Source: an uncultured Ignavibacteria bacterium | GTDB lineage: Bacteria > Zixibacteria > MSB-5A5 > CAIYYT01 | NCBI GenBank assembly: GCA_964552775.1 | Contig: CAZKIH010000011.1 | Coordinates: 15,206 to 79,205, forward strand | Direction of reading: 5' to 3' | DNA: 64,000 nt | Part shown: positions 38,765 to 54,921 of the stretch, in pieces | Layout of the letters: every line of letters starts with the position of its first letter | Numbering within the stretch: the first letter of the stretch is position 1 | Program-made: the position numbers and the translations under genes | The notes under the pieces: generated by a model | The model's input: only the letters and a program-made list of their open reading frames with translations | What the model was told of the DNA's origin: nothing | Database searches by the model: none

Positions 38765-39646
38765 TCAACCACCGGTTAACCAGAATATCGCCATGACCGA
38801 GAGAAACCACAAGACAATATTGATCAGAATCGGCATGTCAGTAAGTAGCAGTCGCGTGGGTGAGCCGCCGCCTTCCTCCTGATGAATCAAATAGAGATAA
38901 CGGAATATTCCATAGAGAACGAAAGGTATCGTCAACTCAAGATGCTTGACGCCCAACTTCTCCTGAATCTCCGGGGACAGCGTGTAAAAAGTATAGGCGA
39001 CAACGGTCGAGGCAGTCACCACGCCGATAAGCTGATCGAGAAAATAAGGTGAGTATTTCTTGAGAGTCACACGATGACTATACGCCTGATCCTTCAGAAT
39101 CACCAGTTCGTGTCTTCGCTTGCCAAACCCAATAAACAGAGCCAAGAGAAATGTGCAGGCGATCAGCCAGGACGATGTGGGGACAGATATAGCAAAGGAG
39201 CCGGCAACGGCACGCAGGACAAACGATACCGCTATCGACATGACGTCAATGATAACGATGTCCTTGAGCAATGAAGTATAGAGAATGTTGAAGGCGACGA
39301 AAATCAAAGTGACGTTGAGAAAACTTCGCGGAAGAAGAAATGACAACCCTAATCCACATACTATGAGTCCAACTGCCAGCGCCCGGGCGGCAACTACTGA
39401 GACCGTCCCCGAAGCCAATGGGCGGCTCTTCTTAAGCGGATGGAGGCGATCCGTTTCCCGGTCGTGCAGATCATTGATCACGTAAATAGCTGATGACAGC
39501 AGGCAGTAGATTCCGAATGCCATCAGTGTGTGGAGAATGTTCTGCGTGTCTGTGAACTGGCGCGCAAAGATCAGCGCCCCGAATACGATCAGGTTTTTTA
39601 CCCACTGATCGGGTCGCAGGAGAATAAGGATTGCTCGTAGGTGCAT
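38765..39646 (-). CDS. UbiA-family prenyltransferase (decaprenyl-phosphate phosphoribosyltransferase-like / possible DGGGP-synthase-like)
   Basis: NDxxDxxxD motif NDLHDRETD; about 8 TM helices. Confidence 0.7.
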   Translation of the reverse strand: MHLRAILILLRPDQWVKNLIVFGALIFARQFTDTQNILHTLMAFGIYCLLSSAIYVINDLHDRETDRLHPLKKSRPLASGTVSVVAARALAVGLIVCGLGLSFLLPRSFLNVTLIFVAFNILYTSLLKDIVIIDVMSIAVSFVLRAVAGSFAISVPTSSWLIACTFLLALFIGFGKRRHELVILKDQAYSHRVTLKKYSPYFLDQLIGVVTASTVVAYTFYTLSPEIQEKLGVKHLELTIPFVLYGIFRYLYLIHQEEGGGSPTRLLLTDMPILINIVLWFLSVMAIFWLTGG

Positions 39647-39680: not shown

Positions 39681-40319
39681 TTATATCGTCTTGAACGGCA
39701 ACGCCTTGCGGATCTCAGGCAGAGCTATGTGCATGAAGTTCTCCGCCAGTTGCTGGCATTCTTCCGGTTTCTTGCCACTCTGACCGACAGTCAACCGGAT
39801 GATAACTGCATCGGTCGGCGATAACAAGAGCGAATTGCGCACAAGATCAAACTTCAGCGCATATTCGGAAGCAAGATCACCGGAGCGCGTATGAAACCAA
39901 TAGAACATCTGATCAACTCGGGATCGTTTGGTTATGGTCATTCGATTGACCTCGATTTCGCGATCTCCCAAATCAAAAGGAACATGGTCCAGTCCCGTCA
40001 GGACCCAGCCGCCGCCGGGAAGGCAATGACGAGGCGAGTGAATTTGTGAACCGTACTTCTGATCCCGAAAATAGGCAATATACAGACCGACGTAATTTCC
40101 CGCACCGTCCGTGTATCCCCGCAATAGAACATCCGTCGCCTGCAGCACAGCTGCCGTAGCCTCGCCCACAGGAAAGACCTCAGCCTTCCAGCCCGCAATC
40201 TCAAGAGGAATGTCAGCCAAGCGCGAAGGCTGGTCGGGTTCCACTGCCATATATCGAAGTACCGTTGCCATCGCTCCGAACGGCAGCAACAAGACGATTA
40301 TGACCAGAAACTTCTTCAC
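39681..40319 (-). CDS. epsI: EpsI-family exosortase-associated protein
   Basis: ~210 aa with N-terminal TM. 4-nt overlap with the upstream exosortase gene. Confidence 0.6.
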   Translation of the reverse strand: MKKFLVIIVLLLPFGAMATVLRYMAVEPDQPSRLADIPLEIAGWKAEVFPVGEATAAVLQATDVLLRGYTDGAGNYVGLYIAYFRDQKYGSQIHSPRHCLPGGGWVLTGLDHVPFDLGDREIEVNRMTITKRSRVDQMFYWFHTRSGDLASEYALKFDLVRNSLLLSPTDAVIIRLTVGQSGKKPEECQQLAENFMHIALPEIRKALPFKTI

Positions 40320-41221
40320 CTTTTCGATTCTCCGTCTTGCTCCGTCTTCTCGCCGATATGAAGCACACTACTCAAAATCAAGAGACAAACCAAACTGAAC
40401 ACAAATACTATGGTACCTGACAATTCATGAATGAAATCTTCAGCGATGGAGCGTGAAATTCCATAAGCACCCATCGCCGTTACCCAGATTCGAAAGATGT
40501 TAGCCGCCACGGCGATCGGAACTGTCGCAACAAACAAGGTAATTGCCTTCCACTTAACAGTTTGAGTCAAGTAAGCCAATAATGCGCCTAAAGCCAGCAG
40601 GGTGACCAGCGAACGAAGTCCGGAACAAGCCTCTGCCACCTCAAGGGAGTAGTTATCAAGCAGGTGGATAATATTCCCCTGGCGAAGGTGAGGCACGCCG
40701 AACAACCCAAGTAGGCCGGCAGCGACCTTTGAACCAAGCATTTGAAGCGGAAATGTTGCGCTGTAATAGATGATGTAAGGCACCGGTATCATGAAAAGCA
40801 GGAAGAAGAATGCAAACCAAATCTCCCTCGCAAATCGCGCTCCGGCAAGGTACAGTGTTATTCCAAACAACAAGCCAACTAATGAGATTCGTGCGGTGAA
40901 GTATTCCATGCCGGCCGTGCCGAGAATGAAGATGATCAGAGATGCGATCATGACCGGAATTCCCAGCTTGCTCGATTCCAGAGGGATTGTCCGCAACGCG
41001 GCTCGTTTCCTCCAAATGATCCAGGCACTTACCGGGATGATCAAAAAGCCGTGGGAATAATTGTCATCGGTGTACCAATCACCCGCTAATTGCACCAGAA
41101 TCGGCAAATACATGAGCAGAATGATGCAGCCGATTATGACAATCTGCCACATCGGTAATTCAAACGAACCGCCGGTAGCCAGTGACTTGCCGGGTGAATG
41201 GGCGATGTCGTTCTTAGGCAC
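40316..41221 (-). CDS. Exosortase (Xrt-family transpeptidase)
   Basis: W..DDNYSHGFL N-terminal motif; catalytic Cys in LEVAEACSGLRSL; conserved Arg in NIFRIWV; 8 TM helices. Confidence 0.75.
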   Translation of the reverse strand: MPKNDIAHSPGKSLATGGSFELPMWQIVIIGCIILLMYLPILVQLAGDWYTDDNYSHGFLIIPVSAWIIWRKRAALRTIPLESSKLGIPVMIASLIIFILGTAGMEYFTARISLVGLLFGITLYLAGARFAREIWFAFFFLLFMIPVPYIIYYSATFPLQMLGSKVAAGLLGLFGVPHLRQGNIIHLLDNYSLEVAEACSGLRSLVTLLALGALLAYLTQTVKWKAITLFVATVPIAVAANIFRIWVTAMGAYGISRSIAEDFIHELSGTIVFVFSLVCLLILSSVLHIGEKTEQDGESKR

Positions 41222-42287: not shown

Positions 42288-43277
42288 TCAGCGGATATAC
42301 TCATTGGTCTGCCTGCCTGCCGGATGATCTCGAAACCACGAAATGGTTCGCTTCAGTCCTGCTTCTAGGCTGATTTCAGGCTTCCACCCTAATACACTTT
42401 GAGCTAGTCCATTGTTGGACAACAATCGTTCAACCTCTGATTGCTGCGGTCGCAAACGGTTCGGATCGCGCACCGGTTTCGTTTTGACACCAACCAGATT
42501 GGCGATCAAATCTACGAGCTCTCCTATTGATATCTCACGCCCGACACCAAGGTTGATTGTCTGCCCGATCGCCTGGTCAGCTTCGGCGCCGCAAATCATG
42601 CCGGTTGCCGTATCCGTGACATAAGTAAAATCGCGCGTGGGCGAGGTTGCACCAATTCGCAACTCATTTCCGACAAGCAACTGCGAAATGATAGTCGGGA
42701 TTACCGCGCGAAGCGACTGACGCGGACCGTAGGTGTTAAACGGACGGACGATGACAACAGGCAGCCCAAAGCTGCGATAGAATGAATCCGCCAACATGTC
42801 GGCTGAGATCTTAGAGGCCGAATATGGCGACTGTCCGACTTTGGGGTGGTTCTCGTCAATGGGAACGTACTGCGCCGTCCCATAGACTTCGGAAGTGGAA
42901 ACATGTACCACGCGCTTGACACCTTGATCAAGTGCCGCTGTGAGAACATTGGTCGTTCCGACAATATTCGTCTCGACATAATTGCGCGGATGAACATACG
43001 AGTACGGTATTCCGATCAGCGCAGCAAGATGAAACACGACATCGCATCCCTTGACCGCGTTTCGCACAGCATCAGAATCCTTAATGTCTCCGGCTATGAC
43101 TTCAGTCTTGCCGGTGACACTCTCGGGCATCGTGTCGATCCAGCCTCGATCCGAGCGCGAGTTGTAACGAATGAAAGCGCGGACGTTCGCGCCCTTGGCA
43201 ACCAAGGCTTCAAGTAGATGACTGCCGATGAATCCGGCTGCGCCGGTCACCAGGACAGTGCGGTCTCTCAATTTCAT
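42288..43277 (-). CDS. NAD-dependent nucleotide-sugar epimerase/4,6-dehydratase (extended SDR)
   Basis: VTGAAGFIGSH; catalytic YSASK. Confidence 0.8.
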   Translation of the reverse strand: MKLRDRTVLVTGAAGFIGSHLLEALVAKGANVRAFIRYNSRSDRGWIDTMPESVTGKTEVIAGDIKDSDAVRNAVKGCDVVFHLAALIGIPYSYVHPRNYVETNIVGTTNVLTAALDQGVKRVVHVSTSEVYGTAQYVPIDENHPKVGQSPYSASKISADMLADSFYRSFGLPVVIVRPFNTYGPRQSLRAVIPTIISQLLVGNELRIGATSPTRDFTYVTDTATGMICGAEADQAIGQTINLGVGREISIGELVDLIANLVGVKTKPVRDPNRLRPQQSEVERLLSNNGLAQSVLGWKPEISLEAGLKRTISWFRDHPAGRQTNEYIR

Positions 43278-43355
43278 GCAGGTATTATTGCGATGTTGGC
43301 AATATTAACGCAAGCGAGAATCTGAGGCTCTTCCCGCTTCACACTCCTGCTTCTC

Positions 43356-44240
43356 CTATGGACTGTACAGGATCTGCAGCTTTGCACCGGGTGTTCCGGT
43401 GAAATAGTCATACACATTCAACAAAATTGGGCCGGATGTCCCAAATTCAGCCTGATGCAGCGCCTTGATGAGAGCCAGGTCAAAACGCAGAGTGGTGTTT
43501 GTCCAACAGCGTTCATCCTGACAGTCTTTGCGGCAGTTATCATCATTGTTGTCGTGGCGCAAGTAGAGACTCGCTTGCACTGGATTTGATTCGGCGAATT
43601 CGCCGGGGGACATGTACAGAAAATAGTAATGGTTTTTGCAGCCGCCGCCGTGAGCGAGGTGGACAAACAGCGTGTCGGCAACGATTGCAACGCTGTCGAG
43701 GTCAAACGGATCGAGAGTTAATAGAGTTGGGAGTATCGAAACGGGTGTCACCGGTTCTACCAGAGCAGGTTTTGGCGATTCCTCGACAACGCGCAACGTG
43801 ATTCGCCAGGGCGGTAATGGTGACGTGGTGGATTTGTAGACTATCAACTCGTAAGGGTCCGGTCGTACAGCGTGAAGCTCGAAGTTGTAGCCGTTCCATG
43901 TTTCTGCAAGTGCGCTTGCTTCGCTGGTCCACGACAACCCGTACTTTCCCAAGACCAGATGCGCACCACCCGCTGATTCGGAGTTGACGTACAGCTCAAT
44001 CTCGACGAAGCCGGGATCGATGCAACCGAGTTCCCCGCTGCAGCGAGTGTCGTTGAGCATGCTGGACATACTGACGCTTAGGTCGGCTTCCTTGATTATT
44101 GCTGTTTGCTGCACTGCGAGTTCAAACGTAGCGCCAAGGTCGGCGTAAAAGATTTCCTGTGTGTTGGGTGGATCGGAGCATTGGAGAGAGAGCAAGCCAA
44201 GAAGCGCGATAGCTGCCACCCTGTAAGCGACTTGAATCAT
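43356..44240 (-). CDS. Hypothetical lipoprotein (start at internal Met MIQVAYR)
   Basis: Lipobox LSLQCS. The N-terminal extension of the 43356-44435 ORF overlaps the upstream gene, so the internal start is preferred. Confidence 0.45.
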   Translation of the reverse strand: MIQVAYRVAAIALLGLLSLQCSDPPNTQEIFYADLGATFELAVQQTAIIKEADLSVSMSSMLNDTRCSGELGCIDPGFVEIELYVNSESAGGAHLVLGKYGLSWTSEASALAETWNGYNFELHAVRPDPYELIVYKSTTSPLPPWRITLRVVEESPKPALVEPVTPVSILPTLLTLDPFDLDSVAIVADTLFVHLAHGGGCKNHYYFLYMSPGEFAESNPVQASLYLRHDNNDDNCRKDCQDERCWTNTTLRFDLALIKALHQAEFGTSGPILLNVYDYFTGTPGAKLQILYSP

Positions 44241-44349
44241 ATTGGACTCCTTCCGCAAGTAAAACGAACCAACGGAAGATTTGTCTATAAAGATTTCCAT
44301 GATTTCTGTGGCGGGTGGCGCCCAATTTGGGGCGCCACCGGGGGGACTC

Positions 44350-44868
44350 TTAGTGGTGGGCGTGAGCCGCGTGAACAAATGCATGGCCGCGTCCACGCTT
44401 GATGAGCCAACGATTGACCGGATAAGCGGCTGCACCGGCCAGCAGAAGCGAGGAGATCATGCTCGCCCAGAAGAGACCGGATAGTGGTCCCGCAGTCATG
44501 GCGCCGGGAATTACGAGCATAACGGCGTTATCGATGATTTCCATGATGATGATTGACACGGTATCGGATGCTAAAGCGAGAAGCAAAGCCGATCCGACTG
44601 CCAAACCGGAACGCAACAGCGGTACCAAGGTAAGGCCGTAACCGAAGAAGAAGGCGAGAGCGACAGAAAGGGCTATTGTCGACCAGGTGCCCCAGCCGAG
44701 GGACATGCCGATCAGCATCCCCAGAATTTCGCCGATCGCACAACCGGTCAGACAGTGAATGGTGGCGCTTAAGGCGAGTCGATTTAGTGATACGGGTGTT
44801 GACCGCTGATGTTCGTGGTGCATTGCGTGATTCATATAAGTACCTCCGTGTTCAGTTTCCAGCTTCAA
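44350..44868 (-). CDS. DUF4396-family integral membrane protein with His-rich termini
   Basis: HCLTGCAIGE motif; His-rich N-terminus (HAMHHEH) and C-terminus (HAFVHAAHAHH). Confidence 0.55.
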   Translation of the reverse strand: MKLETEHGGTYMNHAMHHEHQRSTPVSLNRLALSATIHCLTGCAIGEILGMLIGMSLGWGTWSTIALSVALAFFFGYGLTLVPLLRSGLAVGSALLLALASDTVSIIIMEIIDNAVMLVIPGAMTAGPLSGLFWASMISSLLLAGAAAYPVNRWLIKRGRGHAFVHAAHAHH

Positions 44869-44971
44869 GCGACCAAGATTTTTGACCGCACAAGTTGAGA
44901 CGGGGACCGGTGAAAAGGTTACAGTGCAATTCTGATATTTTGTGGAAAAATGGGATTTTCAGAAGATCGTG

Positions 44972-45511
44972 TTAATTGCGCGAACAGGTGCAGTCGAGAC
45001 AACCGTGCTTGGCGCAGGTGCGGCAGGTTTCCTCGAGACGCTCGCGCAAAGCCTGCCTGGCGCGATGGCGGCGAACCTTGAGATTGTTGATGTTGGTTCC
45101 GAGCTGTCTTGCGAGAGTCGCTGGGTCGCCATCAGCAAGATCGAGCTTTTCAATAAGTTCGGCGTATTCGGGTTTTAGCGCGGGGAGCAAATCACGGAAG
45201 CACTCACAGAGTTCGCTTTCCTCGCTTTGATCAGGTGCGGCGTGCGAGTCGAGCTGATAATCCGAAGACTCGATGTGGCGCGCCTCAACGGCGCGATGGC
45301 GATAGAAATCGATGATGGCGTTATTGAGGATAGTGTAGAACCACGAGGTGAACCGTTCGTCATCACGGATTTCGCCGGCCGATTTCAGCGCTTTGGCGAA
45401 ACTGTCCTGCAGGATATCCTCGGCGGTTTCCGGGTCGGCAACTTTCTTGCGGATGAGCGCGAGAAGTTTCTGCCGTTGAGCGAGCAAGCGGCTGATCAGA
45501 ATCTCATTCAT
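44972..45511 (-). CDS. ECF-type sigma-70 factor with C-terminal Cys-rich extension (CorE-like)
   Basis: Sigma region 2 (DILQDSFAKAL...FYRHR) and region 4 (ATLARQLGTNINNLKVRRHRARQALRE). C-terminal tail CRTCAKHGCLDCTC. Confidence 0.7.
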   Translation of the reverse strand: MNEILISRLLAQRQKLLALIRKKVADPETAEDILQDSFAKALKSAGEIRDDERFTSWFYTILNNAIIDFYRHRAVEARHIESSDYQLDSHAAPDQSEESELCECFRDLLPALKPEYAELIEKLDLADGDPATLARQLGTNINNLKVRRHRARQALRERLEETCRTCAKHGCLDCTCSRN

Positions 45512-45566
45512 TTGAAAAGGAATACGATGTTCGCACGATGAAGTTTGTTGCGGCATAGATTGCTGT

Positions 45567-45962
45567 TTACAAAGTAGTCGCAGTATCTTCACAGAAGGCG
45601 AGCACATGGCCATCGGGATCAAGACTGTAGGCGACTCGATGTCCCCAGGGCCGCAGTGCCATCGGACTTAACTCCGTAGCGCCAGTCTCAAGGGCTCGAA
45701 CGTGGTGAGACTCAGCTTCGGCGAGCATCAGGTACAATTCCGCGCGCGGCACTCCGTGGGCGGTTGCAGGGTCGGGCAGTGAGTTACCCAGAAGCCGCCT
45801 GATTCCGGTCTCTGGCATGAGGCCAAGGGTGGCGCCGTCATTCAACTTGAACTCGGTCATCCCCGGGACGAAAAGAATCGGCTCGCACGCCAGAACGCGC
45901 GAGTAGAATCTGGTACTCGCCTCCTGATCAGCCACATAAAGAATGAAGAGCGCGGGCCTCAA
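45567..45962 (-). CDS. VOC-family (glyoxalase/bleomycin-resistance-like) protein
   Basis: 131 aa, glyoxalase-like betaalphabetabetabeta module. Confidence 0.55.
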   Translation of the reverse strand: MRPALFILYVADQEASTRFYSRVLACEPILFVPGMTEFKLNDGATLGLMPETGIRRLLGNSLPDPATAHGVPRAELYLMLAEAESHHVRALETGATELSPMALRPWGHRVAYSLDPDGHVLAFCEDTATTL

Positions 45963-46438
45963 TGCTGCACCCAGTCCGGCATGGGATTATCTGGCCGTTC
46001 GTCATCCCACACCATCGAGACAACCCACCAGCGTTCACTTTCCCACAGAAGTTGGATGCTGTTGATTCCTCGCCCAATGACAGTATCGTCGATATCGCTG
46101 AGTACGGCTTCGTAGGCGCTGAAAATATGTCGGATAGATCCAAACGCTTCCTCCCGCCGGGCGATTTCTGTCTCCCGAAATCCCTTGTCCCTAAACATAT
46201 CGCTCTGGAAAACGACTTTTCCTCGTTCGACAAACTGCTCGACAGTCAATGACACCGAATCAGGGAGACTTCGTTTGGGGACCAGCAGCCTGCCGTCCGG
46301 AATAAACAACGATCGCAGCTTCTTCCAGTCGGCCGTTTCGCCCTGCTTGAAGGAGATAGAATCATAAAGTGCTTTGATGATGGCGCTGACCGATGCGACA
46401 TGTAACGGGTCAGCCTCAATAAGTGGTGTAGGTTTCAT
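45959..46438 (-). CDS. SnoaL/NTF2-like fold hypothetical protein
   Basis: 159 aa; NTF2-like pattern. Confidence 0.4.
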   Translation of the reverse strand: MKPTPLIEADPLHVASVSAIIKALYDSISFKQGETADWKKLRSLFIPDGRLLVPKRSLPDSVSLTVEQFVERGKVVFQSDMFRDKGFRETEIARREEAFGSIRHIFSAYEAVLSDIDDTVIGRGINSIQLLWESERWWVVSMVWDDERPDNPMPDWVQH

Positions 46439-46539
46439 AGGTCGAATTTACGTGATTTCAGTACGCGGTGTCAAGTTGAGGAATTGGGTAACCAACAGCT
46501 TGCTGTGCAGTAGCTTCTATAGCAGGCACCATGAGAACT

Positions 46540-46690
46540 GAGTCCGTAGGGGCGCGGTCTGCGCGCCCATAGATTGCAAGTGAGCGTCAGTTGTAGGTCA
46601 GGAGCCCCGCGCTCCTGACATCCGCTAGTGATGATCATGGTTGGCGTTGCAGTGCCTGGCACACACCCTCGTGTGCCACGTAATGTCAAA
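46540..46690. repeat. Cluster of REP-like palindromes
   Basis: GGGGCGCGgtctGCGCGCCC. GTAGGTCAGGAGCcccgcGCTCCTGAC (shares the GTAGGTCAG head with REP-A). GGCACACAccctcGTGTGCC. Confidence 0.55.
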
Positions 46691-46720
46691 TTGTCCTGTG
46701 CTCTTTCCCGATTGACTAGA

Positions 46721-47539
46721 TTATCCAAAAATATCGTTCAGATCCTTAAACGCCGCCGCCTCACTGAGGCTGTCAAACGACCCGGTTTTGAGAATTTCTG
46801 AAGCCGATCGCATCAACGCCCCCAGCGCCACGCGCGAAAGCGCCGATCCGACCGAGATCCGGCGCACACCGAGATCGGCCAGCCGTGCTACGCTCAGACC
46901 GGGCACCGGCGAAGACACCAGCACATTGACCGGCAATGGCGCGACGGCCTTGACAATTCTACTGATCGCCTCGGGGTCACGCACTCCCGGCGCATAAAGA
47001 CAATCCGCGCCGGCCTCGGCGAAAGCGACCAATCTGTCGAGCGAGACTCGCTCGGCTTCTGGGTCGCCCACCAGCCAGGCCTCGCAGCGCGCCGTCAAAA
47101 GCACTCCCGTTCCAGTAGCATCGACGGCCGCTCTCGCGGTGCGCACTCGTTCTATCGCGACAGCTCGCTCAAATAACGGCCTCGCACCGTCGCCCGTGGC
47201 GTCCTCGATCGAAAGTCCAGCGACCCCGGTCTCGACGCAGAGTTTGACGTTGCGCGCGAGTGTCTCCAAATCTTCCGCATAGCCGGACTGGAAATCAGCG
47301 TTGACCGGAAGCGGTGTTGCCTCGACAATTTCCTTGATGTGCGCAAGTACGTCGTTGAGCAACAGCGCCTGCGGTTCGTCGCTCAGCCCGCTCGTAAACG
47401 CGTACCCGGCCGAGGTCGTTGCCAGCGCCTTGAATCCGATATGGTGAAGGATTTTCGCCGAGCCGATATCCCACGGATTCGGAATCACAAAACACCCCGA
47501 GGCGTGGAGGGAGTGGAAATTGGAACTGAGATTAGGCAT
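46721..47539 (-). CDS. Isocitrate lyase/PEP mutase superfamily enzyme (methylisocitrate lyase / carboxyvinyl-carboxyphosphonate phosphorylmutase-like)
   Basis: ICL/PEPM family fold. Confidence 0.75.
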   Translation of the reverse strand: MPNLSSNFHSLHASGCFVIPNPWDIGSAKILHHIGFKALATTSAGYAFTSGLSDEPQALLLNDVLAHIKEIVEATPLPVNADFQSGYAEDLETLARNVKLCVETGVAGLSIEDATGDGARPLFERAVAIERVRTARAAVDATGTGVLLTARCEAWLVGDPEAERVSLDRLVAFAEAGADCLYAPGVRDPEAISRIVKAVAPLPVNVLVSSPVPGLSVARLADLGVRRISVGSALSRVALGALMRSASEILKTGSFDSLSEAAAFKDLNDIFG

Positions 47540-47551
47540 CTCTCGCTACTC

Positions 47552-49009
47552 CTAGTAGGATTTGAACGGAGTTCCAGTCAAGCTAAGGAACCACAGAATT
47601 ACAAGTCCCACGGAAAGAATCGACTGAATGCCAGCAACGGGCCTTACCCAACCTCTTGCTATTAAGTCAATTTCACGGCGGGTTAAGAGCCGAATCCAAC
47701 GACCAAAATTCACTTCTCGAAATCCTATATTAAATGCTGACATTGCCGAGAAAAACAGAGACCACCATATCATCCGAACAGGCATTGGCCAATTGCTGAA
47801 TGAATTGGGCCATACTGCCTTTAATTTGCCCTCCGTAGTCCTTAACGGGATTGCCGTAGGCACGGCATTTGTTCTGGGCCGCCTACTCGACCATTTCTGT
47901 CCATACCCGGATTCAATGAGATAGAGTCCCCCCGGTCCCTTTAGAAGTGTTGACACAAAGTATATACAACTTGCAAGAAACCAAAGTAAGCCAACGATAC
48001 GCCAAGGCCGCCAGAGATTGCTCCCCCACTCGCACGTGTAGTCAAATAGTAAGTACTCCCACCATGTTTGAGAACAACGCCTAATCGAACAAATGACTTT
48101 TCGCTCTGCTTTGGCCAGTCCCAATTCGTGGAACCGTCCTTGTAATGCTACCAGGCCATTCGGTCGCACCCGGTATCGCAAGCTATCTAGGCCACGCGCA
48201 AAGGCCATCGTCTCGACATTCGGCAGCGAATCGATCTCGAAAATGGCTCCTGATAATTCCACATCAAACAAGTCCGCTCGCGAAAGGTTTGCTCCCAAAA
48301 GGCTGGCTCCTCTCAAGCTGGTTGAGGGAAGAGGCACTTCAGTTTCAGTTTTGTTTCCTTTGGAGAATTGAGTAATCAAATACTGGCTGTGGGAGGCAGT
48401 GATTCCAGCTAAGTTCGAGCTATCAAGCTTGCACCCAGTGAAGTCGGTGCAATAAAGTTCAGCCTCTGAAAGGTTGGCTCCGGTCAAATCGGAGGTCCGA
48501 AATGATGTCTGCATCATACGAGAGGTAGACATCCTTGCGCCTCTGAGACTCGAGTTCTCAAACGCAAGGTACGATAGATCGACACCCGCCAACACAACAC
48601 TATCTAAGATGGCATTGTCGAAGACGAAGATTTTGGCGACCACACTATCTCTTGCGGACTTGAGTCCTCTATCTTGCTTTAAAAGTGAATCGAGTTCTGC
48701 TCTTGTACGTCGAAGAGAGTCAGGATCCTCACGAAATCGCCAACTCCATTCGGCACAATTGGCGATGGGTACCATTATGCACATTAGTGCAGTGACAAGA
48801 CAGAAGGCTCTTATATTGACACGATTCAGGATAGACTGACGCACAGTAGCACCGCTCAGCTCAAATGTAACATTTGTCGAGTTCCGCGTTGCGTCCTGAC
48901 TTTTTCGGGACTCCACTGTGAACACCGACCTACAACTCTCGACCATTTTGCCGGCGTTGGCAAAATGGTCAGCATTTTGTTTTGCATTCACCGCGGGGCG
49001 CATCGCCAT
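47552..49009 (-). CDS. Pentapeptide-repeat protein with C-terminal multi-TM domain
   Basis: Tandem A(D/N)LxxA pentapeptide repeats (ANLSEAELYCTDFTGCKLDSSNLAG...). Hydrophobic C-terminal ~150 aa. Confidence 0.65.
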   Translation of the reverse strand: MAMRPAVNAKQNADHFANAGKMVESCRSVFTVESRKSQDATRNSTNVTFELSGATVRQSILNRVNIRAFCLVTALMCIMVPIANCAEWSWRFREDPDSLRRTRAELDSLLKQDRGLKSARDSVVAKIFVFDNAILDSVVLAGVDLSYLAFENSSLRGARMSTSRMMQTSFRTSDLTGANLSEAELYCTDFTGCKLDSSNLAGITASHSQYLITQFSKGNKTETEVPLPSTSLRGASLLGANLSRADLFDVELSGAIFEIDSLPNVETMAFARGLDSLRYRVRPNGLVALQGRFHELGLAKAERKVICSIRRCSQTWWEYLLFDYTCEWGSNLWRPWRIVGLLWFLASCIYFVSTLLKGPGGLYLIESGYGQKWSSRRPRTNAVPTAIPLRTTEGKLKAVWPNSFSNWPMPVRMIWWSLFFSAMSAFNIGFREVNFGRWIRLLTRREIDLIARGWVRPVAGIQSILSVGLVILWFLSLTGTPFKSY

Positions 49010-49048: not shown

Positions 49049-51523
49049 CTACACCTCTAACTCCGCCTGGTCTCCATTGTCGCCATTCCCGTTCTCATCA
49101 TCTTCAGCGATAATGCGCGCAACATCCGTGACACGGTCGCCCGGCTCGAGATTAATCAACTTGACGCCCTGCGTCGCGCGGCCAATCACTCGAATCGACT
49201 TGATGTCCTGGCGGATGACAATGCCCTTTTCGGTGATGATCATCAGCCCATCCTTGTCGACGACCTCTTTCACCGCAATCACGTTGCCGGTCTTGTCAGT
49301 CGTCTTCATGTTGATCACGCCCTTGCCGCCGCGGTTGGTGACACGGTACTCGGAAATTTCCGAGCGCTTGCCGAAACCGAATTCGGCGACGGTCAGAATC
49401 GAAGTGTCGCGCTTGACCACGACCATGCCGACAACGTAATCCTTTGTCTCGAGTTCAATCCCCTTGACACCGTACGCAGTGCGACCCATCGCGCGCACCT
49501 TGTTCTCCTCGAAGCGAATCGCCTGGCCCTCGTGGGTGGCGAGAATGATGTCGTTGTTGCCGTCGGAGATATCGACCTCGATCAGGATGTCATCATCCGG
49601 AATGTCGATCGCCTTGATACCGTCGCGCCGCGGATTCGAGAAGGCCGGCAGTTCCGTCTTCTTGATAATGCCGTTGCGCGTGGCCATGACGACGAACTTG
49701 CCCTCCTCAAAACTGCGTACCGGAACGAATGCACAGATTTTCTCGGCTTCGACCAACTCGACCATGTTGACCACCGGCTTGCCCTTGGCAAGTTTGCCGC
49801 CGACCGGAACCTCGTGAACCTTGATCCAATAGGCCTTGCCCTTGGTCGAGAAGAAGAGAATGTAGTCGTGCGTCGAGGCAATAAACAAGTGCTCGACGAA
49901 ATCCTCTTCCTTGACGTTGATCCCAATCGATCCGCGGCCGCCGCGATTCTGTTTGCGATAGGCCGAGGTCGACAGTCGCTTGATATAGCCCTGATGGCTG
50001 ATAGTGATGACCATGTCCTCTTCGGCGATCAAGTCTTCGATCGAGATTTCTTCCTCGGCATCGACGATTTCCGTGCGCCGTTCGTCGCCGTACTTCTCTT
50101 TCATCTCAACCAGTTCAGTTTTGATGATCTGCATGCGCATATCGTGACTCGCAAGCACCGACTTGAGGTACTCGATCTGCTGAATCAGGTCTCGGTATTC
50201 GTCCTCGATCTTCTGGCGTTCCAGACCGGTCAGGCGTTGCAAACGCATCTCGAGAATAGCCTGTGCCTGGATCTCCGAAAGCTTGAATCGCGACATGAGA
50301 TTTTCTTTGGCTTCCGGAACAGTCTTGGAAGCGCGAATCGTCGAGATAATCGCGTCTATATGGTCGAGCGCGATACGCAGGCCCTCAAGAATATGCGCGC
50401 GTTCCTCGGCTTTCTTAAGATCATACTTGGCGCGCCTGATAACCACTTCATGCCGATGCTTGAGGAACTCCTCGAGCATCGATCGCAGCGGCAACACCTT
50501 CGGAGCGCCGTCGACAAGCGAGATCATGATCACACCAAACGTCGACTGCATCTGCGTGTGCTTGAACAACTGGTTGAGCACGATCTGCGGTTGGATATCG
50601 CGTTTCAGTTCGATCACGATCCTCATGCCGTCGCGATCAGATTCATCGCGCAGGTCGGAAATGTCTTCGACGACTTTGTTGCGCACGAGATCGGCGATCT
50701 TTTCGATCAAATTCGACTTATTGACTTGATACGGGATCTCCGAAATGACAATCTGCTCTTTGCCGTTCTTGAGTTTTTCGACGTTGGCCTTGGCTCGAAC
50801 ATTGATGCGACCCCGTCCGGTGCGATACGCGTCGCGGATGCCATCGCGGCCGTAGATAATACCGCCGGTCGGAAAATCGGGACCGGAGACATACTTGAGA
50901 AGAAGCTCATTATCAATCGCTGGATTATCAATCACCGCCACCAACGCATCCACGATTTCACGCAGGTTGTGCGGCGGTATGTTCGTCGCCATGCCGACAG
51001 CGATACCCGAGGACCCATTGCAAAGCAAGTTCGGAAACTTGCCAGGCAGCACACGCGGTTCGCGCAAGGTTTCGTCGTAGTTGGGCATGAAATCGACGGT
51101 ATCTTTTTCGAGATCGGCCAGCATCTCCATCGCGATCGCCGTCAGACGCGCCTCGGTGTATCGCATGGCGGCGGCATCATCGCCGTCGACCGAGCCGAAG
51201 TTGCCCTGGCCGTCGACCAGCGGGTAGCGCATGTTGAAATCCTGCGCCATGCGCACCAGCGTCGGATAGACGACCTGTTCGCCGTGCGGGTGGTAGTTGC
51301 CCGAGGTGTCGCCGCAGATTTTGGCGCATTTACGATGCGGCCGGTCGGGGGCGAGATTGAGATCGTTCATGGCGATCAGGATGCGGCGGTTCGAGGGTTT
51401 GAGCCCGTCGCGCACATCGGGCAGCGCGCGCGAGGTGATGACGGACATGGAGTAGTCGAGATAGGAGGATTTCATCTCCTCCTCGAGGTAAACCGATATC
51501 AGATTTTCGCGATTGAGTACCAT
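49049..51523 (-). CDS. gyrA: DNA gyrase subunit A
   Basis: 824 aa; active-site region with the catalytic Tyr; C-terminal beta-pinwheel repeats. Confidence 0.97.
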   Translation of the reverse strand: MVLNRENLISVYLEEEMKSSYLDYSMSVITSRALPDVRDGLKPSNRRILIAMNDLNLAPDRPHRKCAKICGDTSGNYHPHGEQVVYPTLVRMAQDFNMRYPLVDGQGNFGSVDGDDAAAMRYTEARLTAIAMEMLADLEKDTVDFMPNYDETLREPRVLPGKFPNLLCNGSSGIAVGMATNIPPHNLREIVDALVAVIDNPAIDNELLLKYVSGPDFPTGGIIYGRDGIRDAYRTGRGRINVRAKANVEKLKNGKEQIVISEIPYQVNKSNLIEKIADLVRNKVVEDISDLRDESDRDGMRIVIELKRDIQPQIVLNQLFKHTQMQSTFGVIMISLVDGAPKVLPLRSMLEEFLKHRHEVVIRRAKYDLKKAEERAHILEGLRIALDHIDAIISTIRASKTVPEAKENLMSRFKLSEIQAQAILEMRLQRLTGLERQKIEDEYRDLIQQIEYLKSVLASHDMRMQIIKTELVEMKEKYGDERRTEIVDAEEEISIEDLIAEEDMVITISHQGYIKRLSTSAYRKQNRGGRGSIGINVKEEDFVEHLFIASTHDYILFFSTKGKAYWIKVHEVPVGGKLAKGKPVVNMVELVEAEKICAFVPVRSFEEGKFVVMATRNGIIKKTELPAFSNPRRDGIKAIDIPDDDILIEVDISDGNNDIILATHEGQAIRFEENKVRAMGRTAYGVKGIELETKDYVVGMVVVKRDTSILTVAEFGFGKRSEISEYRVTNRGGKGVINMKTTDKTGNVIAVKEVVDKDGLMIITEKGIVIRQDIKSIRVIGRATQGVKLINLEPGDRVTDVARIIAEDDENGNGDNGDQAELEV

Positions 51524-51689
51524 GGTTATGTCTCTATGTTAAGGTAAGGAGAATTTCATATTCATTTGATTCGTAGGTCGGGTTCGCAGCGCAGCGCCGA
51601 ACCCGACATCTGTTCGTGTGTTCTCGTTCAATTGACAAGTTTCACGTTCTGCCTGCCTTCGGCGGCTCCACTGGGAATCCGATCTATAA

Positions 51690-51756
51690 CTACTCTCCGT
51701 AATCGCCCTCGAAGATGGGAGGGAAAATTTGACCCCAATCGGGCCGATACAGTTGG
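51690..51756 (-). pseudogene. 3'-terminal fragment of a RAYT gene
   Basis: Encodes ...LYRPDWGQIFPPIFEGDYGE, matching the C-terminus (GLYRPDWGQIDPPKFEGDYGE) of the intact RAYT at 52119-52190. Confidence 0.6.
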
Positions 51757-52118
51757 TAGGTCGGGTTCGCAGCGCAGCGCCGAACCCGACATCTATTTCT
51801 CATTGAAAAGTCGTCTCTCAATTTCTGTATAGTGCTTGTTACCCTTGATTGTTGTTGGAGTGACAATCGAATGTGACATCTCGAAGCGGCAATTGTCAGA
51901 CGAAAAGATATGCCAATGTTCACTTTGTTCCGGGTCAACCAAAAGGTCTTCCAGTTGCTGCTTCAATTGTCTTGCCTCACTTACAGTCAAGTACAATTGC
52001 AGATTTCGGATGGATTGGCTTCTCTCAACATCCAACATTCTCATCGTGAATACTCCCTATTGTCGGGTTCCGTGCTTCGCTGGGAACCCGACCTACAATC
52101 TACCTCTGCGCGCTACAA

Positions 52119-52598
52119 TTACTCGCCGTAGTCGCCTTCAAATTTCGGCGGGTCAATTTGACCCCAATCGGGCCGATACAGTCCTTCGGCCACATACTTG
52201 CCAAACGACGAATGTTGCCACGCAATGGCGCTTGAAGACAACTTGTGTTTGACCGGATTGTAATGAATGTAATTCAAGTGGTTATTCATTTCGTCCTGAT
52301 CGCGGATGACGTGATCCCAGAAGCGATTGTGCCATACGCGACCATCGCGATAGTTCATACGAAATCTCGCGGCATACTTCACCTTGAATCGATGCATGAT
52401 ATTCGAGATGTTCTCATTGCCGCAGTTTAACATGACATGCAAATGATCAGGCGTCAAAACCCATGCATAGGGTATCACGGTGCTCCAGCATTCCCCAAAG
52501 AGATTGGGATTGTTGAGAAGCAATGGTTCGCGATCATAGGTCACGATTGTCAAGAAGTAATCGTGATTAGCAAGGTCGTATCGTCGCAAAGTCTTCAT
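52119..52598 (-). CDS. REP-associated tyrosine transposase (RAYT), second copy, distinct family
   Basis: HuH motif VLTPDHLHVML; NHLNYIHYNPVKH Tyr region. Confidence 0.85.
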   Translation of the reverse strand: MKTLRRYDLANHDYFLTIVTYDREPLLLNNPNLFGECWSTVIPYAWVLTPDHLHVMLNCGNENISNIMHRFKVKYAARFRMNYRDGRVWHNRFWDHVIRDQDEMNNHLNYIHYNPVKHKLSSSAIAWQHSSFGKYVAEGLYRPDWGQIDPPKFEGDYGE

Positions 52599-52672
52599 GG
52601 CTCAATCGTGTCGGGTTCTGCGCATTGCTGGGAACCCGACCTACGGGCTGATCAACCCGCAACCCCCACGTC

Positions 52673-54625
<1,953 letters not shown>

Positions 54626-54630
54626 TTATC

Positions 54631-54921
54631 TCAAGTAAAATAGATATCCGTAACGATCGTATCGCCAAGCCGCGTGTTCAGCTTGTCAATCATCTCAGCC
54701 TTGGTGTAATTGAGTTCCTGCCGCCACGCCGATGATGCCACACGCACCGTAAGTACGCCGCGCTCAATTTGAATGGCCTGCGCCTTCGCAGCGATTTTCT
54801 CACCAACCACCTCGGCAAAAACATGAACCGCTTCAAACTCGCGAATTCTGCGGTCCAAACCGAGATTCGTAAAGGTCCGTTTTAGAACTTTGCCAATGGA
54901 TTCCGCACGTCGCAACATCAA
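54631..54921 (-). CDS. DUF721-family protein (DciA-like, candidate helicase-loading factor) between recF and gyrB
   Basis: 96 aa. Position equivalent to Bacillus yaaB/remB. Confidence 0.55.
   Translation of the reverse strand: MMLRRAESIGKVLKRTFTNLGLDRRIREFEAVHVFAEVVGEKIAAKAQAIQIERGVLTVRVASSAWRQELNYTKAEMIDKLNTRLGDTIVTDIYFT

What the first reader, a model, noticed from the sequence alone, without database searches (positions are those of the whole stretch)
44350..45511. ECF sigma factor with fused Cys-rich C-terminal domain next to a His-rich DUF4396 membrane protein: candidate metal-sensing module
The sigma factor ends in CRTCAKHGCLDCTC after region 4, resembling CorE-type (ECF44-like) sigma factors whose Cys-rich tail senses Cu/Cd/Zn. 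No separate anti-sigma factor is evident. The adjacent DUF4396 protein has HAMHHEH and HAFVHAAHAHH termini and an HCLTGC motif, and the neighbouring lipoprotein may belong to the same unit. The ZIP transporter elsewhere in the window is unrelated positionally.
Basis: partly seen in the sequence, partly recalled or inferred. Interest (0 to 1): 0.5.

Follow-up and report, generated by a model that had tools for sequence, protein, structure and literature searches.

The report
CorE-type copper sigma factor driving DUF4396
This is a self-contained metal (most likely copper) switch: a sigma factor that carries its own cysteine sensor, like CorE of Myxococcus, with a conserved promoter turning on the neighbouring DUF4396 membrane protein, which this points to as a copper-handling protein.

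Summary
On the minus strand, 44972..45511 encodes a 179-aa ECF sigma factor. It has a linker CxC (C102, C104) and the tail C163-x2-C166-A167-x3-C171-x2-C174-x-C176. That is residue for residue the published CorE cysteine pattern, including the 59-residue distance from the CxC.

The DUF4396 protein lies 136 nt downstream (44350..44835, 161 aa, four membrane helices). Between the genes sits an ECF-type promoter, TGTAACC-N14-CGTCT (44898..44923). In 80 related loci from many phyla, this motif is about 20-fold enriched within 1 kb of the sigma gene. It precedes DUF4396 (18-21 loci), CopA/CopB-type ATPases (18), cupredoxins (3) or the sigma gene itself (10).

DUF4396 is therefore the sigma's local target, not an anti-sigma factor. 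Elsewhere DUF4396 sits behind CsoR or MerR regulators, next to copper oxidases, CusF, DUF305 and P-type ATPases. One homologue is fused to an HMA domain.

The lipoprotein is not part of the unit. A related genome lacks exactly 44268..45969 (glyoxalase-like gene, sigma, DUF4396 and hairpin) but keeps the lipoprotein.

Verdict: a new member of the known CorE-like kind. It also gives a useful, apparently unpublished functional lead for DUF4396. Metal response and transport remain untested.

The parts
44972..45511 (-). CorE-like ECF sigma factor gene (179 aa, sigma2 + sigma4.2 + about 20-aa Cys-rich tail)
   Evidence: ORF and translation. Pfam Sigma70_r2 and Sigma70_r4_2. Best NCBIfam model is SigZ at 103 bits, below its cut-off. 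1302 homologues at E<=1e-5.
45200..45208 (-). Codons of the linker CxC motif (C102-E-C104, within LCECF)
   Evidence: Invariant in 26 homologues and present in 76 of 77 related sigmas. The corresponding CxC is essential in CorE and CorE2 (PMC4937300).
44984..45025 (-). Codons of the Cys-rich domain C163-R-T-C166-A167-K-H-G-C171-L-D-C174-T-C176
   Evidence: All five Cys and H169 are invariant. The spacing equals CorE C181, C184, A185, C189, C192, C194 (PMC3107203; PMC4937300). 68 of 77 relatives have Ala at the specificity position and none has Cys.
44898..44923 (-). ECF-type promoter TGTAACC-N14-CGTCT in the sigma/DUF4396 intergenic region
   Evidence: The only full-consensus copy in the window. 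The same motif lies at the same place in related loci. 68 sites within 1 kb of the sigma genes against 14 elsewhere, binomial p 2e-35; reversed-pattern controls give 2 against 13-15.
44843..44847 (-). Shine-Dalgarno GGAGG, 7 nt before the DUF4396 ATG
   Evidence: Read directly from the sequence. The equivalent GGAGG is conserved in related loci.
44350..44835 (-). DUF4396 membrane protein gene (161 aa; four transmembrane helices; His-rich N and C tails; HCLTGC in helix 1)
   Evidence: PF14342 E 2.9e-41. Invariant polar and ligand residues. AlphaFold2 model with pLDDT 86 and helices 17-45, 50-75, 80-108, 120-159. Adjacent to the sigma in 18-24 of 80 related loci.
44314..44339 (-). GC-rich hairpin (10-bp stem, 6-nt loop) 10 nt after the DUF4396 stop codon; probable end of the transcription unit, although it has no U-tract
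   Evidence: Centroid -23.2 kcal/mol, z -3.3, and 0 of 200 shuffles fold as well. Conserved in L003-L005, with one two-sided compensatory change in L004. It lies inside the indel cassette.
45567..45962 (-). Glyoxalase/VOC-superfamily gene immediately upstream of the sigma. It belongs to the same 1.7-kb indel cassette; its role in the module is unknown.
   Evidence: Pfam Glyoxalase 24.7 bits against a cut-off of 20.6. Absent together with the sigma and DUF4396 from the related genome L174. Present near the module in L003-5, L013 and L029.
44268..45969 (.). Extent of the cassette (glyoxalase-like gene, sigma, promoter, DUF4396, hairpin) that is missing from a syntenic relative
   Evidence: blastn of the window against L174: the flanks align at 74-85% identity, but this stretch is replaced by about 67 nt (gene list).
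46445..46474 (-). Sigma-70-like promoter (TTGACA-18-TAAATT) upstream of hyp159, the glyoxalase-like gene and the sigma. It is a candidate metal-independent promoter for the sigma gene (consensus match only).
   Evidence: Consensus scan, 10 of 12 matches. No copy of the ECF motif lies upstream of the sigma gene in the window.

Best explanation
The locus is a one-protein metal sensor with its output gene.

**The sensor.** The 179-aa ECF sigma factor is a CorE-type factor (former group ECF44, now within ECF238). Its gene is probably transcribed without regard to metal, together with the upstream hyp159 and glyoxalase-like genes. The protein is inactive until a metal, most likely copper, is bound by a cysteine cluster. 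That cluster is contributed by the linker CxC (C102, C104) and the C-terminal Cys-rich tail (C163, C166, C171, C174, C176).

**The output.** The metal-loaded sigma directs RNA polymerase to the promoter TGTAACC-N14-CGTCT, which lies 49-74 nt downstream of its own stop codon. From there the DUF4396 gene is transcribed, up to the hairpin at 44314..44339.

**The predicted role of DUF4396.** It is predicted to be a small four-helix inner-membrane protein with both termini in the cytoplasm. Its His-rich tails would collect cytoplasmic copper. A ladder of invariant intramembrane ligands (H27, C28, C32, E36 in helix 1; D91, M98, E99, D102, N103 in helix 3) would pass the metal out of the cytoplasm or sequester it. 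In relatives, CopA/CopB-type ATPases occupy the same position downstream of the same promoter.

**Shown and inferred.**
- Shown: gene anatomy, the Cys signature, motif conservation and enrichment, gene-neighbourhood statistics, and the cassette indel.
- Inferred: metal identity, activation by metal, promoter use by this particular sigma, and the transport role and direction of DUF4396.
For: **1. CorE signature.**
- The CxC and the pattern Cx2C-A-x3-Cx2CxC are invariant in homologues.
- The spacing is identical to CorE, which has C120/C122 and C181, C184, A185, C189, C192, C194. The CxC-to-tail distance is 59 residues in both proteins (PMC3107203; PMC4937300).
- Ala occupies the position where Cys174 makes CorE2 respond to Cd/Zn and where C174A switches it to Cu.

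**2. Best family model.** The best NCBIfam model is SigZ, which Casas-Pastor et al. place in ECF238 together with CorE2.

**3. No anti-sigma domain.** None is found in any neighbouring ORF.

**4. Promoter.**
- GTAACC-N14-17-CGT[CT] occurs at 0.176 per kb within 1 kb of the 80 sigma genes and at 0.0086 per kb elsewhere (p 2e-35).
- Reversed-pattern controls are flat.
- The unconstrained flanking positions are also conserved: T before GTAACC in 65 of 68 sites, and T after CGTC in 52 of 68.
- The motif precedes DUF4396 in 18 loci (21 with three Planctomycetota loci identified only by ORF clustering), P1B-ATPases in 18, the sigma itself in 10 and cupredoxins in 3.
- It is absent from 78 DUF4396 upstream regions in loci that lack the sigma.
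- Its geometry fits the published CorE promoters, which have AAC and a conserved G 16-18 nt downstream.

**5. DUF4396 or an ATPase, not both.** None of the 18 DUF4396-adjacent loci is among the 41 loci with a P1B-ATPase within 4 kb of the sigma. The ATPases are 16 CPH-type with His-rich N-termini (CopB-like) and 17 CPC-type.

**6. DUF4396 under other metal regulators.**
- A CsoR-family repressor (PF02583, with the C...H-x3-C ligands) lies directly upstream on the same strand in 9 of 80 metagenome loci; MerR-family regulators occur in 3 more.
- One island has MerR divergent from DUF4396, next to CusF, a cupredoxin and a multicopper oxidase.
- Kineococcus plasmid pKRAD01 carries DUF305, CsoR, HMA, a P-type ATPase and DUF4396 in a row.
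- A Streptomyces plasmid carries DUF305, DUF4396 and a four-helix copper-binding protein.
- One homologue, P0260, has an N-terminal HMA domain (GMSCGHC) fused to DUF4396.

**7. Repeated association.** DUF4396-linked sigmas are scattered over at least 6 clades of an NJ tree, with 10 Fitch changes, so the pairing arose or was kept repeatedly.

**8. Cassette.** The glyoxalase-like gene, sigma, DUF4396 and hairpin are present or absent as one block.
Against: - **No experiment.** Nothing here shows metal binding, metal-dependent transcription or transport.
- **No direct comparison with CorE.** I could not obtain the CorE or CorE2 sequences or run the ECF Hub models. The match to CorE rests on residue numbers quoted in the papers.
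- **Sigma model uninformative.** The AlphaFold2 model of the sigma is poor in the Cys-rich tail (pLDDT below 55). It does not show the proposed joint metal site.
- **DUF4396 is mostly not sigma-linked.** Only 1 of 80 sampled metagenome loci has the sigma. Some DUF4396 loci have no metal context at all (Devosia; Halalkalicoccus).
- **Metal identity is not settled.** His/Glu/Asp-rich chemistry would also suit Zn or Cd, and CPC-type ATPases can be Zn/Cd pumps.
- **Weak terminator call.** The hairpin has no U-tract, so read-through into the lipoprotein gene is not excluded.
- **Possible mycobacterial counter-example.** Expressing csoR-pacL3-ctpV-rv0970 in M. smegmatis gave no copper tolerance (PMC13043812). 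Whether Rv0970 is a DUF4396 protein was not tested.
Confidence: 0.75

Rival explanations
1. The module responds to a metal other than copper. It could be CorE2-like (Zn/Cd), or respond to Ag or Hg, with DUF4396 handling that metal.
For: - His-rich tails and invariant Glu/Asp in the membrane helices are common in Zn transporters.
- 17 of the neighbouring ATPases are CPC-type, a motif shared by Cu(I) pumps and Zn/Cd/Pb pumps.
- RND efflux genes lie near 7 loci.
- merB and ArsR-family genes lie near DUF4396 on a Streptomyces plasmid.
- CorE2 shows that this sensor class can read Cd/Zn.
Against: - Ala, not Cys, occupies the CorE2-Cys174 specificity position in 68 of 77 relatives. None has Cys there (PMC4937300).
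- The partners in related loci are copper-specific kinds: CPH-type ATPases with His-rich N-termini, multicopper oxidases and cupredoxins.
- Elsewhere DUF4396 sits with CsoR carrying the Cu(I) ligand set, with CusF and with a copper-binding four-helix bundle.
Confidence: 0.15
2. [quoted passage not shown]
For: - Adjacency is tight and conserved in about a quarter of the loci.
- In Planctomycetota, DUF4396 lies upstream of the sigma and overlaps it by 17-41 nt, like a co-translated pair.
- It is a membrane protein with cytoplasmic tails that could contact the sigma.
Against: - 56 or more of the 80 sigma loci have no DUF4396. They carry an ATPase behind the same promoter instead.
- 79 of 80 sampled DUF4396 genes have no such sigma and sit in target position behind CsoR or MerR.
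- Its cytoplasmic parts are only about 15-20 residues long and contain no anti-sigma domain.
- CorE and CorE2 work without an anti-sigma factor. In them, deleting the Cys-rich tail inactivates the protein rather than activating it.
- A promoter between sigma and DUF4396 is the arrangement expected for a target gene.
Confidence: 0.06
3. The Cys-rich sigma is a thiol, redox or electrophile sensor, and the cassette (glyoxalase-like gene, sigma, DUF4396) is a response to thiol stress rather than to metal.
For: - Cys clusters can act as redox switches. The reviews note a resemblance to zinc-binding anti-sigma domains.
- A glyoxalase/VOC-superfamily gene belongs to the same indel cassette. A glyoxalase gene also lies two genes upstream of DUF4396 in Devosia.
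Against: - The regulated genes in relatives are copper pumps, copper oxidases and cupredoxins.
- The glyoxalase-like gene is upstream of the sigma, not behind the ECF promoter. It is found only in the closest lineage.
- CorE responds to copper itself and to its redox state. The authors examined general oxidative stress as an alternative to direct sensing (PMC3107203).
Confidence: 0.04

Closest known systems
CorE of Myxococcus xanthus (copper-dependent ECF sigma factor; former group ECF44, CorE-like)
   Same: - ECF architecture with a short C-terminal Cys-rich domain and a CxC in the sigma2-sigma4 linker.
- Identical Cys spacing: Cx2C-A-x3-Cx2CxC, 59 residues after the CxC.
- No anti-sigma factor.
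- The promoter has AAC in the -35 element and a G 16-17 nt downstream.
- Relatives of the window sigma sit next to CopA/CopB-type ATPases and multicopper oxidases, which are the CorE regulon.
   Different: - The tail is shorter: about 17 residues after the first Cys, against a 38-residue domain in CorE.
- The window gene has no copy of the motif upstream, so it is probably not autoregulated. CorE is partly autoregulated.
- The local target is a DUF4396 protein, not an ATPase or oxidase.
- The host is an uncultured lineage of the Ignavibacteria/Zixibacteria type, outside the four phyla listed in 2011.
- No direct sequence alignment to CorE could be made here.
CorE2 of Myxococcus xanthus (Cd/Zn-responsive CorE-like sigma)
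   Same: - Same class of sensor.
- Not autoregulated.
- A downstream metal-efflux membrane protein (a cation diffusion facilitator) is the regulated output.
- A lipoprotein gene is adjacent.
   Different: - CorE2 has Cx3CC and a Cys at the specificity position (C174). The window protein has Cx2C and Ala there.
- The CorE2 lipoprotein is co-transcribed and modulates the response. Here the lipoprotein belongs to the genomic backbone, not to the cassette.
SigZ of Bacillus subtilis (ECF238 subgroup 9)
   Same: It is the best-scoring curated family model for the window sigma. It has no anti-sigma factor and has Cys residues in its C-terminus.
   Different: The score (103 bits) is far below the equivalog cut-offs (212 and 168.65). 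According to the 2022 review, the CxC motif is conserved only in the former ECF44 part of ECF238.
CsoR/CopZ/CopA and CueR/CopA copper-efflux operons
   Same: The logic is the same: a cytoplasmic copper sensor switches on a membrane protein that removes copper. DUF4396 itself occurs in such operons (csoR-DUF4396; DUF305-csoR-HMA-ATPase-DUF4396; merR divergent from DUF4396).
   Different: The sensor here is a sigma factor, not a repressor or a MerR-type activator. The output has no ATPase domain, is only 161 aa long, and has no solved structural relative.

Membership tests
CorE-like ECF sigma factors (former ECF44; part of ECF238) | ECF architecture: sigma2 and sigma4.2 only, no sigma3 or sigma1 | tested here: met
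   Pfam finds Sigma70_r2 (residues 13-73) and Sigma70_r4_2 (103-155) and nothing else. TIGR02937 sigma70-ECF scores 66.8 bits against a cut-off of 42.9.
CorE-like ECF sigma factors (former ECF44; part of ECF238) | [quoted passage not shown] | tested here: met
   C102-E-C104. Invariant in 26 homologues and present in 76 of 77 relatives. The defining role is described in PMC4937300 and PMC6851896.
CorE-like ECF sigma factors (former ECF44; part of ECF238) | C-terminal Cys-rich domain with the four invariant Cys (CorE 181, 184, 192, 194) | tested here: met
   C163, C166, C174 and C176 have the same spacing. C171 corresponds to CorE C189, the residue essential in delta-proteobacterial and acidobacterial members. 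The comparison uses published residue numbers, not an alignment to CorE.
CorE-like ECF sigma factors (former ECF44; part of ECF238) | No cognate anti-sigma factor encoded alongside | tested here: met
   The neighbours are a glyoxalase-like gene, hyp159 (no Pfam hit at E<=1), DUF4396 and a lipoprotein (no Pfam hit). None has an anti-sigma domain. DUF4396 behaves as a target gene, not a regulator.
CorE-like ECF sigma factors (former ECF44; part of ECF238) | Metal-homeostasis genes in the neighbourhood or regulon | tested here: met
   In relatives: P1B-ATPases in about 41 of 80 loci, plus multicopper oxidases, cupredoxins and RND pumps. In the window itself only DUF4396 qualifies, and its metal link is inferred from its context elsewhere.
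CorE-like ECF sigma factors (former ECF44; part of ECF238) | Assignment by the ECF Hub group HMMs | not testable with these tools
   The ECF Hub models are not available here, and the supplements of PMC7826278 are not held. The 2022 review notes that CorE itself is unclassified under ECF238.
CorE-like ECF sigma factors (former ECF44; part of ECF238) | Activity switched by metal binding to the Cys-rich domain | not testable with these tools
   This needs reporter or in-vitro transcription assays. The AlphaFold2 model is uninformative in the tail.
SigZ (NCBIfam equivalogs NF007215 and TIGR02959) | Score above the curated equivalog cut-off | tested here: not met
   103.4 bits against 212, and 102.6 bits against 168.65. 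It is a related family, not SigZ itself.
DUF4396 (Pfam PF14342) | Score above the Pfam gathering threshold over the whole domain | tested here: met
   141.6 bits against 27; residues 32-160 cover profile positions 5-140 of 141. 65-89% identity to 29 homologues. 2726 representatives at 50% identity in 1.84 billion proteins.
Conventional sigma/anti-sigma pair (DUF4396 as anti-sigma factor) | The partner carries an anti-sigma domain and co-occurs with the sigma throughout the family | tested here: not met
   No anti-sigma domain. DUF4396 is absent from at least 56 of the 80 sigma loci, and the sigma is absent from 79 of 80 DUF4396 loci.
P1B-type metal ATPase or other known metal transporter families (for DUF4396) | Sequence or fold similarity to a characterised transporter | tested here: not met

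The most novel reading that the evidence does not exclude
DUF4396 is a previously unrecognised, widespread family of small four-helix copper exporters or membrane copper-handling proteins.

- **Size.** The family has about 2,700 representatives at 50% identity and is found in Bacteria and Archaea.
- **Regulation.** Bacteria have wired it independently under three different copper sensors: CorE-like sigma factors, CsoR and MerR/CueR-type regulators.
- **Role.** It can stand in for a P-type ATPase as the local output of the sensor.

The window would then be a minimal two-gene copper-resistance cassette.
Probability: 0.45. Interest if true: 0.6.

Novelty: new member of a known kind. Interest (0 to 1): 0.4.

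Why it matters
CorE-like sigma factors are the best-understood example of a sigma factor that senses its signal directly. Only two have been studied, both from one myxobacterium.

This locus and its 80 relatives add three things:
- The exact CorE cysteine signature is spread over many phyla.
- The family has a sharply defined promoter (TGTAACC-N14/15-CGTCT).
- Its output genes are interchangeable.

That makes compact, orthogonal copper-responsive switches available for testing.

The second gain is a concrete, testable function for DUF4396. This is a large family whose name turned up in only one paper of the searchable library. Here three independent copper regulators, an HMA fusion and invariant intramembrane His/Cys/Met/Glu/Asp residues all point to copper handling.

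Tried and rejected
- **Lipoprotein as part of the unit: rejected.**
  - Its family has only 11 members in 5.8 billion proteins.
  - In L174 it directly follows hyp159, with the sigma/DUF4396 cassette missing.
  - In the L029 genome its homologue lies about 27 kb (roughly 26-53 kb on the sampled ranges) from the module.
- **Second motif match at 8486..8509 (+): treated as chance.** It lies inside an Mrp/ApbC-like ORF and has the minority 14-nt spacing. Shuffles give 0.29 matches on average.
- **PDB sequence search for DUF4396.** It gave only weak matches to the C-terminus of ABCG5 chains, most likely driven by the His-rich end and not real homology.
- **AlphaFold2 model of the sigma.** It was too poor to say anything about a joint CxC/tail metal site (pLDDT 67, below 55 in the tail).
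- **Supplementary alignments.** Those of the CorE2 and ECF-classification papers are not held, so no direct alignment to CorE or CorE2 and no ECF Hub neighbourhood data could be obtained.
- **First gene-calling attempt.** Greedy longest-ORF calling lost the sigma gene in 18 GC-rich loci. It was replaced by clustering all ORFs and by tblastn.
- **Apparent '328-aa P1B' ORFs after DUF4396 in L008 and L032.** The L008 ORF has no Pfam domain (protein 10). The L032 ORF was not scanned. Both are treated as spurious.
- **Other metal genes in the window.** No P1B-ATPase, multicopper oxidase, cupredoxin, RND pump, CsoR, DUF305 or MerR was found.
- **Rfam.** No RNA family matches 43000..47000.
- **Rv0970 of the M. 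tuberculosis cso operon.** Whether it is a DUF4396 protein could not be checked. It is a lead from memory only.
Full report
**1. What is there**

All the relevant genes lie on the minus strand.

- **Sigma factor.** It runs from ATG 45511 to the stop at 44972 (179 aa). An upstream TTG at 45622 would overlap the preceding gene, and every homologue begins at the ATG position. Pfam finds only Sigma70_r2 and Sigma70_r4_2. After region 4 the protein ends EETCRTCAKHGCLDCTCSRN, and the linker contains LCECF.
- **DUF4396 gene.** It starts 136 nt downstream at ATG 44835, seven nucleotides after GGAGG. It encodes 161 aa and ends at 44350. It matches PF14342 at 141.6 bits (cut-off 27). It carries MNHAMHHEH at the N-terminus, HCLTGC at residues 27-32 and GHAFVHAAHAHH at the C-terminus.
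- **Hairpin.** A 10-bp GC hairpin (44314..44339; centroid -23.2 kcal/mol, z -3.3) follows the stop codon.
- **Lipoprotein.** A lipoprotein-like ORF with its own GGAAGGAG ribosome-binding site begins at 44240.
- **Upstream genes.** On the same strand lie a glyoxalase-superfamily gene (45567..45962) and a 159-aa ORF with no Pfam hit (45959..46438). A sigma-70-like promoter match sits at 46445..46474.

**2. The sigma factor is CorE-type**

Twenty-six homologues of 54-94% identity keep all seven cysteines and H169 invariant.

The literature defines CorE-like sigma factors by two features. One is a CxC motif between sigma2 and sigma4.2. The other is a C-terminal Cys-rich domain. Both are essential for activity, and no anti-sigma factor is involved (PMC3107203, PMC4937300, PMC6851896).

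| Feature | CorE | Window protein |
|---|---|---|
| Linker CxC | C120, C122 | C102, C104 |
| Tail | C181, C184, A185, C189, C192, C194 | C163, C166, A167, C171, C174, C176 |
| Second CxC cysteine to first tail cysteine | 59 residues | 59 residues |

Every spacing is identical. CorE2 instead has Cx3CC. Its extra Cys174 sets Cd/Zn specificity, and the C174A mutant responds to copper. The window protein has Ala at that position, as do 68 of 77 relatives. None has Cys there.

The best curated family model is SigZ, far below its cut-off. SigZ and CorE2 are both in group ECF238. A later review stresses that the CxC is kept only in the former ECF44 part of that group. So the window protein belongs with the CorE-like core.

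I could not run the ECF Hub models or align CorE directly.

**3. The link to DUF4396 is a conserved promoter**

A scan of one genome per species returned 80 loci with relatives of the sigma. They come from Ignavibacteria, Zixibacteria, KSB1, Calditrichaceae, Manganitrophaceae, Chloroflexota, Spirochaetota, Planctomycetota, Gemmatimonadota and others. The nearest are MAGs labelled Ignavibacteria or Zixibacteria, at 91-94% identity.

Aligning the sigma-to-DUF4396 spacers by eye showed the same element in every one: TGTAACC, 14-15 nt, CGTCT. In the window it lies at 44898..44923.

| Measure (pattern GTAACC-N14-17-CGT[CT], 2.0 Mb of locus sequence, both strands) | Result |
|---|---|
| Sites within 1 kb of a sigma gene | 68 (0.176 per kb) |
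| Sites elsewhere | 14 (0.0086 per kb) |
| Binomial p | 2e-35 |
| Two reversed-pattern controls | 2 inside, 13-15 outside |
| Loci with at least one site | 58 of 80 |
| T before GTAACC (unconstrained position) | 65 of 68 |
| T after CGTC (unconstrained position) | 52 of 68 |

The motif lies upstream of:
- DUF4396 in 18 loci, or 21 counting three divergent Planctomycetota genes
- P1B-type ATPases in 18 loci
- the sigma gene itself in 10 loci
- cupredoxins in 3 loci

It is absent from the upstream regions of 78 DUF4396 genes in metagenome contigs that lack the sigma. The one contig that does have the sigma carries a degenerate copy. Its geometry matches what was described for CorE-dependent promoters: AAC, then a G 16-17 nt downstream.

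In the window, the only other match lies inside a coding region and is probably chance. No copy precedes the sigma gene. The sigma is therefore probably made independently of metal, as corE2 is.

**4. DUF4396 is an output, not a regulator**

- **Same place as the ATPases.** In the 80 loci, the gene behind the promoter is either DUF4396 or a P-type ATPase, and the two sets do not overlap (0 of 18 against 41).
- **Kind of ATPase.** Sixteen have the CPH motif and His-rich N-termini (CopB-like) and 17 have CPC. Multicopper oxidases, cupredoxins and RND pumps are also recurrent. This is the CorE regulon of M. xanthus: copA, copB and cuoB.
- **Repeated association.** On an NJ tree of 77 sigmas, the DUF4396-linked ones are scattered over at least six clades (10 parsimony changes). 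The pairing was therefore gained or kept repeatedly.
- **Planctomycetota variant.** There the order is promoter, DUF4396, sigma, with overlapping genes. This reads as an autoregulated operon whose first gene is the target.
- **Not an anti-sigma factor.** DUF4396 has no anti-sigma domain and only about 15-20 cytoplasmic residues at each end.

**5. What DUF4396 probably does**

- **Family size and conservation.** The family has at least 8,000 clusters at 90% identity and 2,726 representatives at 50% identity. It is strikingly conserved, at 65-75% identity across phyla.
- **Predicted structure.** The AlphaFold2 model (pLDDT 86) has four long helices.
- **Topology.** By the positive-inside rule, read from the sequence, both termini and the 2-3 loop are cytoplasmic.
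- **Invariant residues.** H27, C28, C32 and E36 lie along helix 1. D91, T92, S94, M98, E99, D102 and N103 lie along helix 3. H151 and H155 lie in the C-terminal tail.

Context outside the sigma family points to copper again:
- In 80 metagenome loci, the commonest immediate upstream neighbour on the same strand is a CsoR-family repressor with the Cys...His-x3-Cys ligand set (9 loci).
- The same loci also contain DUF305 (8), MerR-family regulators (3), ATPase ends (5) and multicopper oxidases (3).
- One island has MerR divergent from DUF4396, next to CusF, a cupredoxin, a multicopper oxidase and an outer-membrane factor.
- Kineococcus plasmid pKRAD01 is annotated DUF305, CsoR-type regulator, HMA protein, P-type ATPase, DUF4396.
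- A Streptomyces plasmid has DUF305, DUF4396 and a four-helix copper-binding protein.
- One representative (P0260) has an N-terminal HMA domain with GMSCGHC joined to DUF4396 by a His-rich linker. This is the N-terminal arrangement of copper ATPases.

All three regulator types switch genes on when copper is in excess. A protective role, export or sequestration, is therefore the most economical reading. This is inference; nothing here shows transport.

Some DUF4396 loci have no metal context.

**6. Limits of the unit**

A related genome (L174, 74-85% nucleotide identity in the flanks) has the order gyrA, hyp159, lipoprotein, epimerases, exosortase, the same as the window. It lacks exactly 44268..45969. 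That stretch holds the glyoxalase-like gene, the sigma, the promoter, DUF4396 and the hairpin.

The module is therefore a 1.7-kb cassette, and the lipoprotein belongs to the backbone. Three further points agree:
- The lipoprotein family has only 11 members.
- In the L029 genome its homologue lies about 27 kb (roughly 26-53 kb on the sampled ranges) from the module.
- The hairpin is conserved in the three closest relatives, with one compensatory pair.

The window has no ATPase, oxidase, cupredoxin, CsoR or MerR.

**7. Verdict**

- **Sigma factor.** It is a new member of a known kind, CorE-like. A specialist would not be surprised by it.
- **What goes beyond the searchable literature.** The sharply conserved family promoter is one addition. 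The other is the evidence that DUF4396 is a copper-regulon membrane protein, wired under CorE-like, CsoR and MerR sensors. The name DUF4396 appears in a single paper, as an island-flanking gene.
- **What remains untested.** Metal identity, activation and transport are inferred. The experiments that would settle them are listed under the decisive next steps.

Noticed in passing
P0260 (protein; sequence): A natural fusion of an N-terminal HMA domain (MQILTVQIDGMSCGHC...) to a complete DUF4396 domain through a His-rich linker. This mirrors the N-terminal metal-binding domain of copper ATPases.
   Followed up: partly
window 44268..45969 compared with L174:4906-4974: The glyoxalase-like gene, sigma, DUF4396 and hairpin are missing as one 1.7-kb block from a syntenic relative. 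The block is an insertion or deletion between hyp159 and the lipoprotein gene. No repeats or mobility genes were looked for at the junctions.
   Followed up: partly
L010:5424-5504 and L011:8708-8788 (Candidatus Manganitrophus plasmid and Manganitrophaceae chromosome): Two tandem copies of the GTAACC...CGTC promoter motif lie 56 nt apart, upstream of the same P-type ATPase gene.
   Followed up: no
L027:9185-9244, L031:9227-9287, L034:4503/5156 (Spirochaetota / Leptospirales): In L027 and L031, back-to-back divergent copies of the motif share one intergenic region. They drive a cupredoxin gene on one strand and an ATPase gene on the other. In L034 the two copies flank the sigma gene itself, about 650 nt apart. 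One drives a cupredoxin gene upstream of the sigma and the other drives DUF4396 downstream of it.
   Followed up: no
L070, L071, L077, L079, L064, L069 (Planctomycetota and relatives): The gene order is reversed: motif, then DUF4396, then the sigma, with the two genes overlapping by 17-41 nt. These DUF4396 proteins are only about 28% identical to the window protein.
   Followed up: partly
L175 (Kineococcus pKRAD01) and L176 (Streptomyces plasmid); metagenome loci L092-L171: DUF305 recurs beside DUF4396 in the metagenome loci. An 'F510_1955 family glycosylhydrolase' lies beside it on both plasmids. A CoxG/SRPBCC-like protein (8 loci, convergent) is another frequent neighbour. None of these partners has a known role in copper handling as far as I checked.
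   Followed up: no
window 8486..8509 (+): This is the second match to the promoter pattern. It lies inside an Mrp/ApbC-like ATPase ORF (7610..8755), 380 nt before a NifU-like ORF (8891..9478). It is probably chance but was not excluded.
   Followed up: partly
window 10046..12764, 22763..32292, 49049..56182: By eye, the window looks like the chromosomal origin region. It has dnaA- and dnaN-like ORFs, yidC/mnmE/gidA/gidB/parA/parB-like ORFs and recF/gyrB/gyrA-like ORFs. Only gyrA is supported, indirectly, by the Pfam annotation of its homologue in L174.
   Followed up: no
window 39681..41221 (-) and 38765..39646 (-): An exosortase EpsH (PF09721) and an EpsI-family DUF3485 protein lie downstream of two NAD-dependent epimerase genes. 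This is a PEP-CTERM/exosortase sorting locus, just beyond the lipoprotein.
   Followed up: partly
window 47552..49009 (-): A 485-aa protein with pentapeptide repeats in its N-terminal half and a hydrophobic C-terminal half. It lies between gyrA and a PEP-mutase/isocitrate-lyase-family gene (46721..47539). This stretch differs from the relative L174.
   Followed up: no
L018, L021, L040, L045, L049, L052 (ORF cluster 7): Small SHOCT-domain membrane proteins (PF09851, about 80 aa) recur near the CorE-like sigma genes in Chloroflexota-type loci.
   Followed up: no
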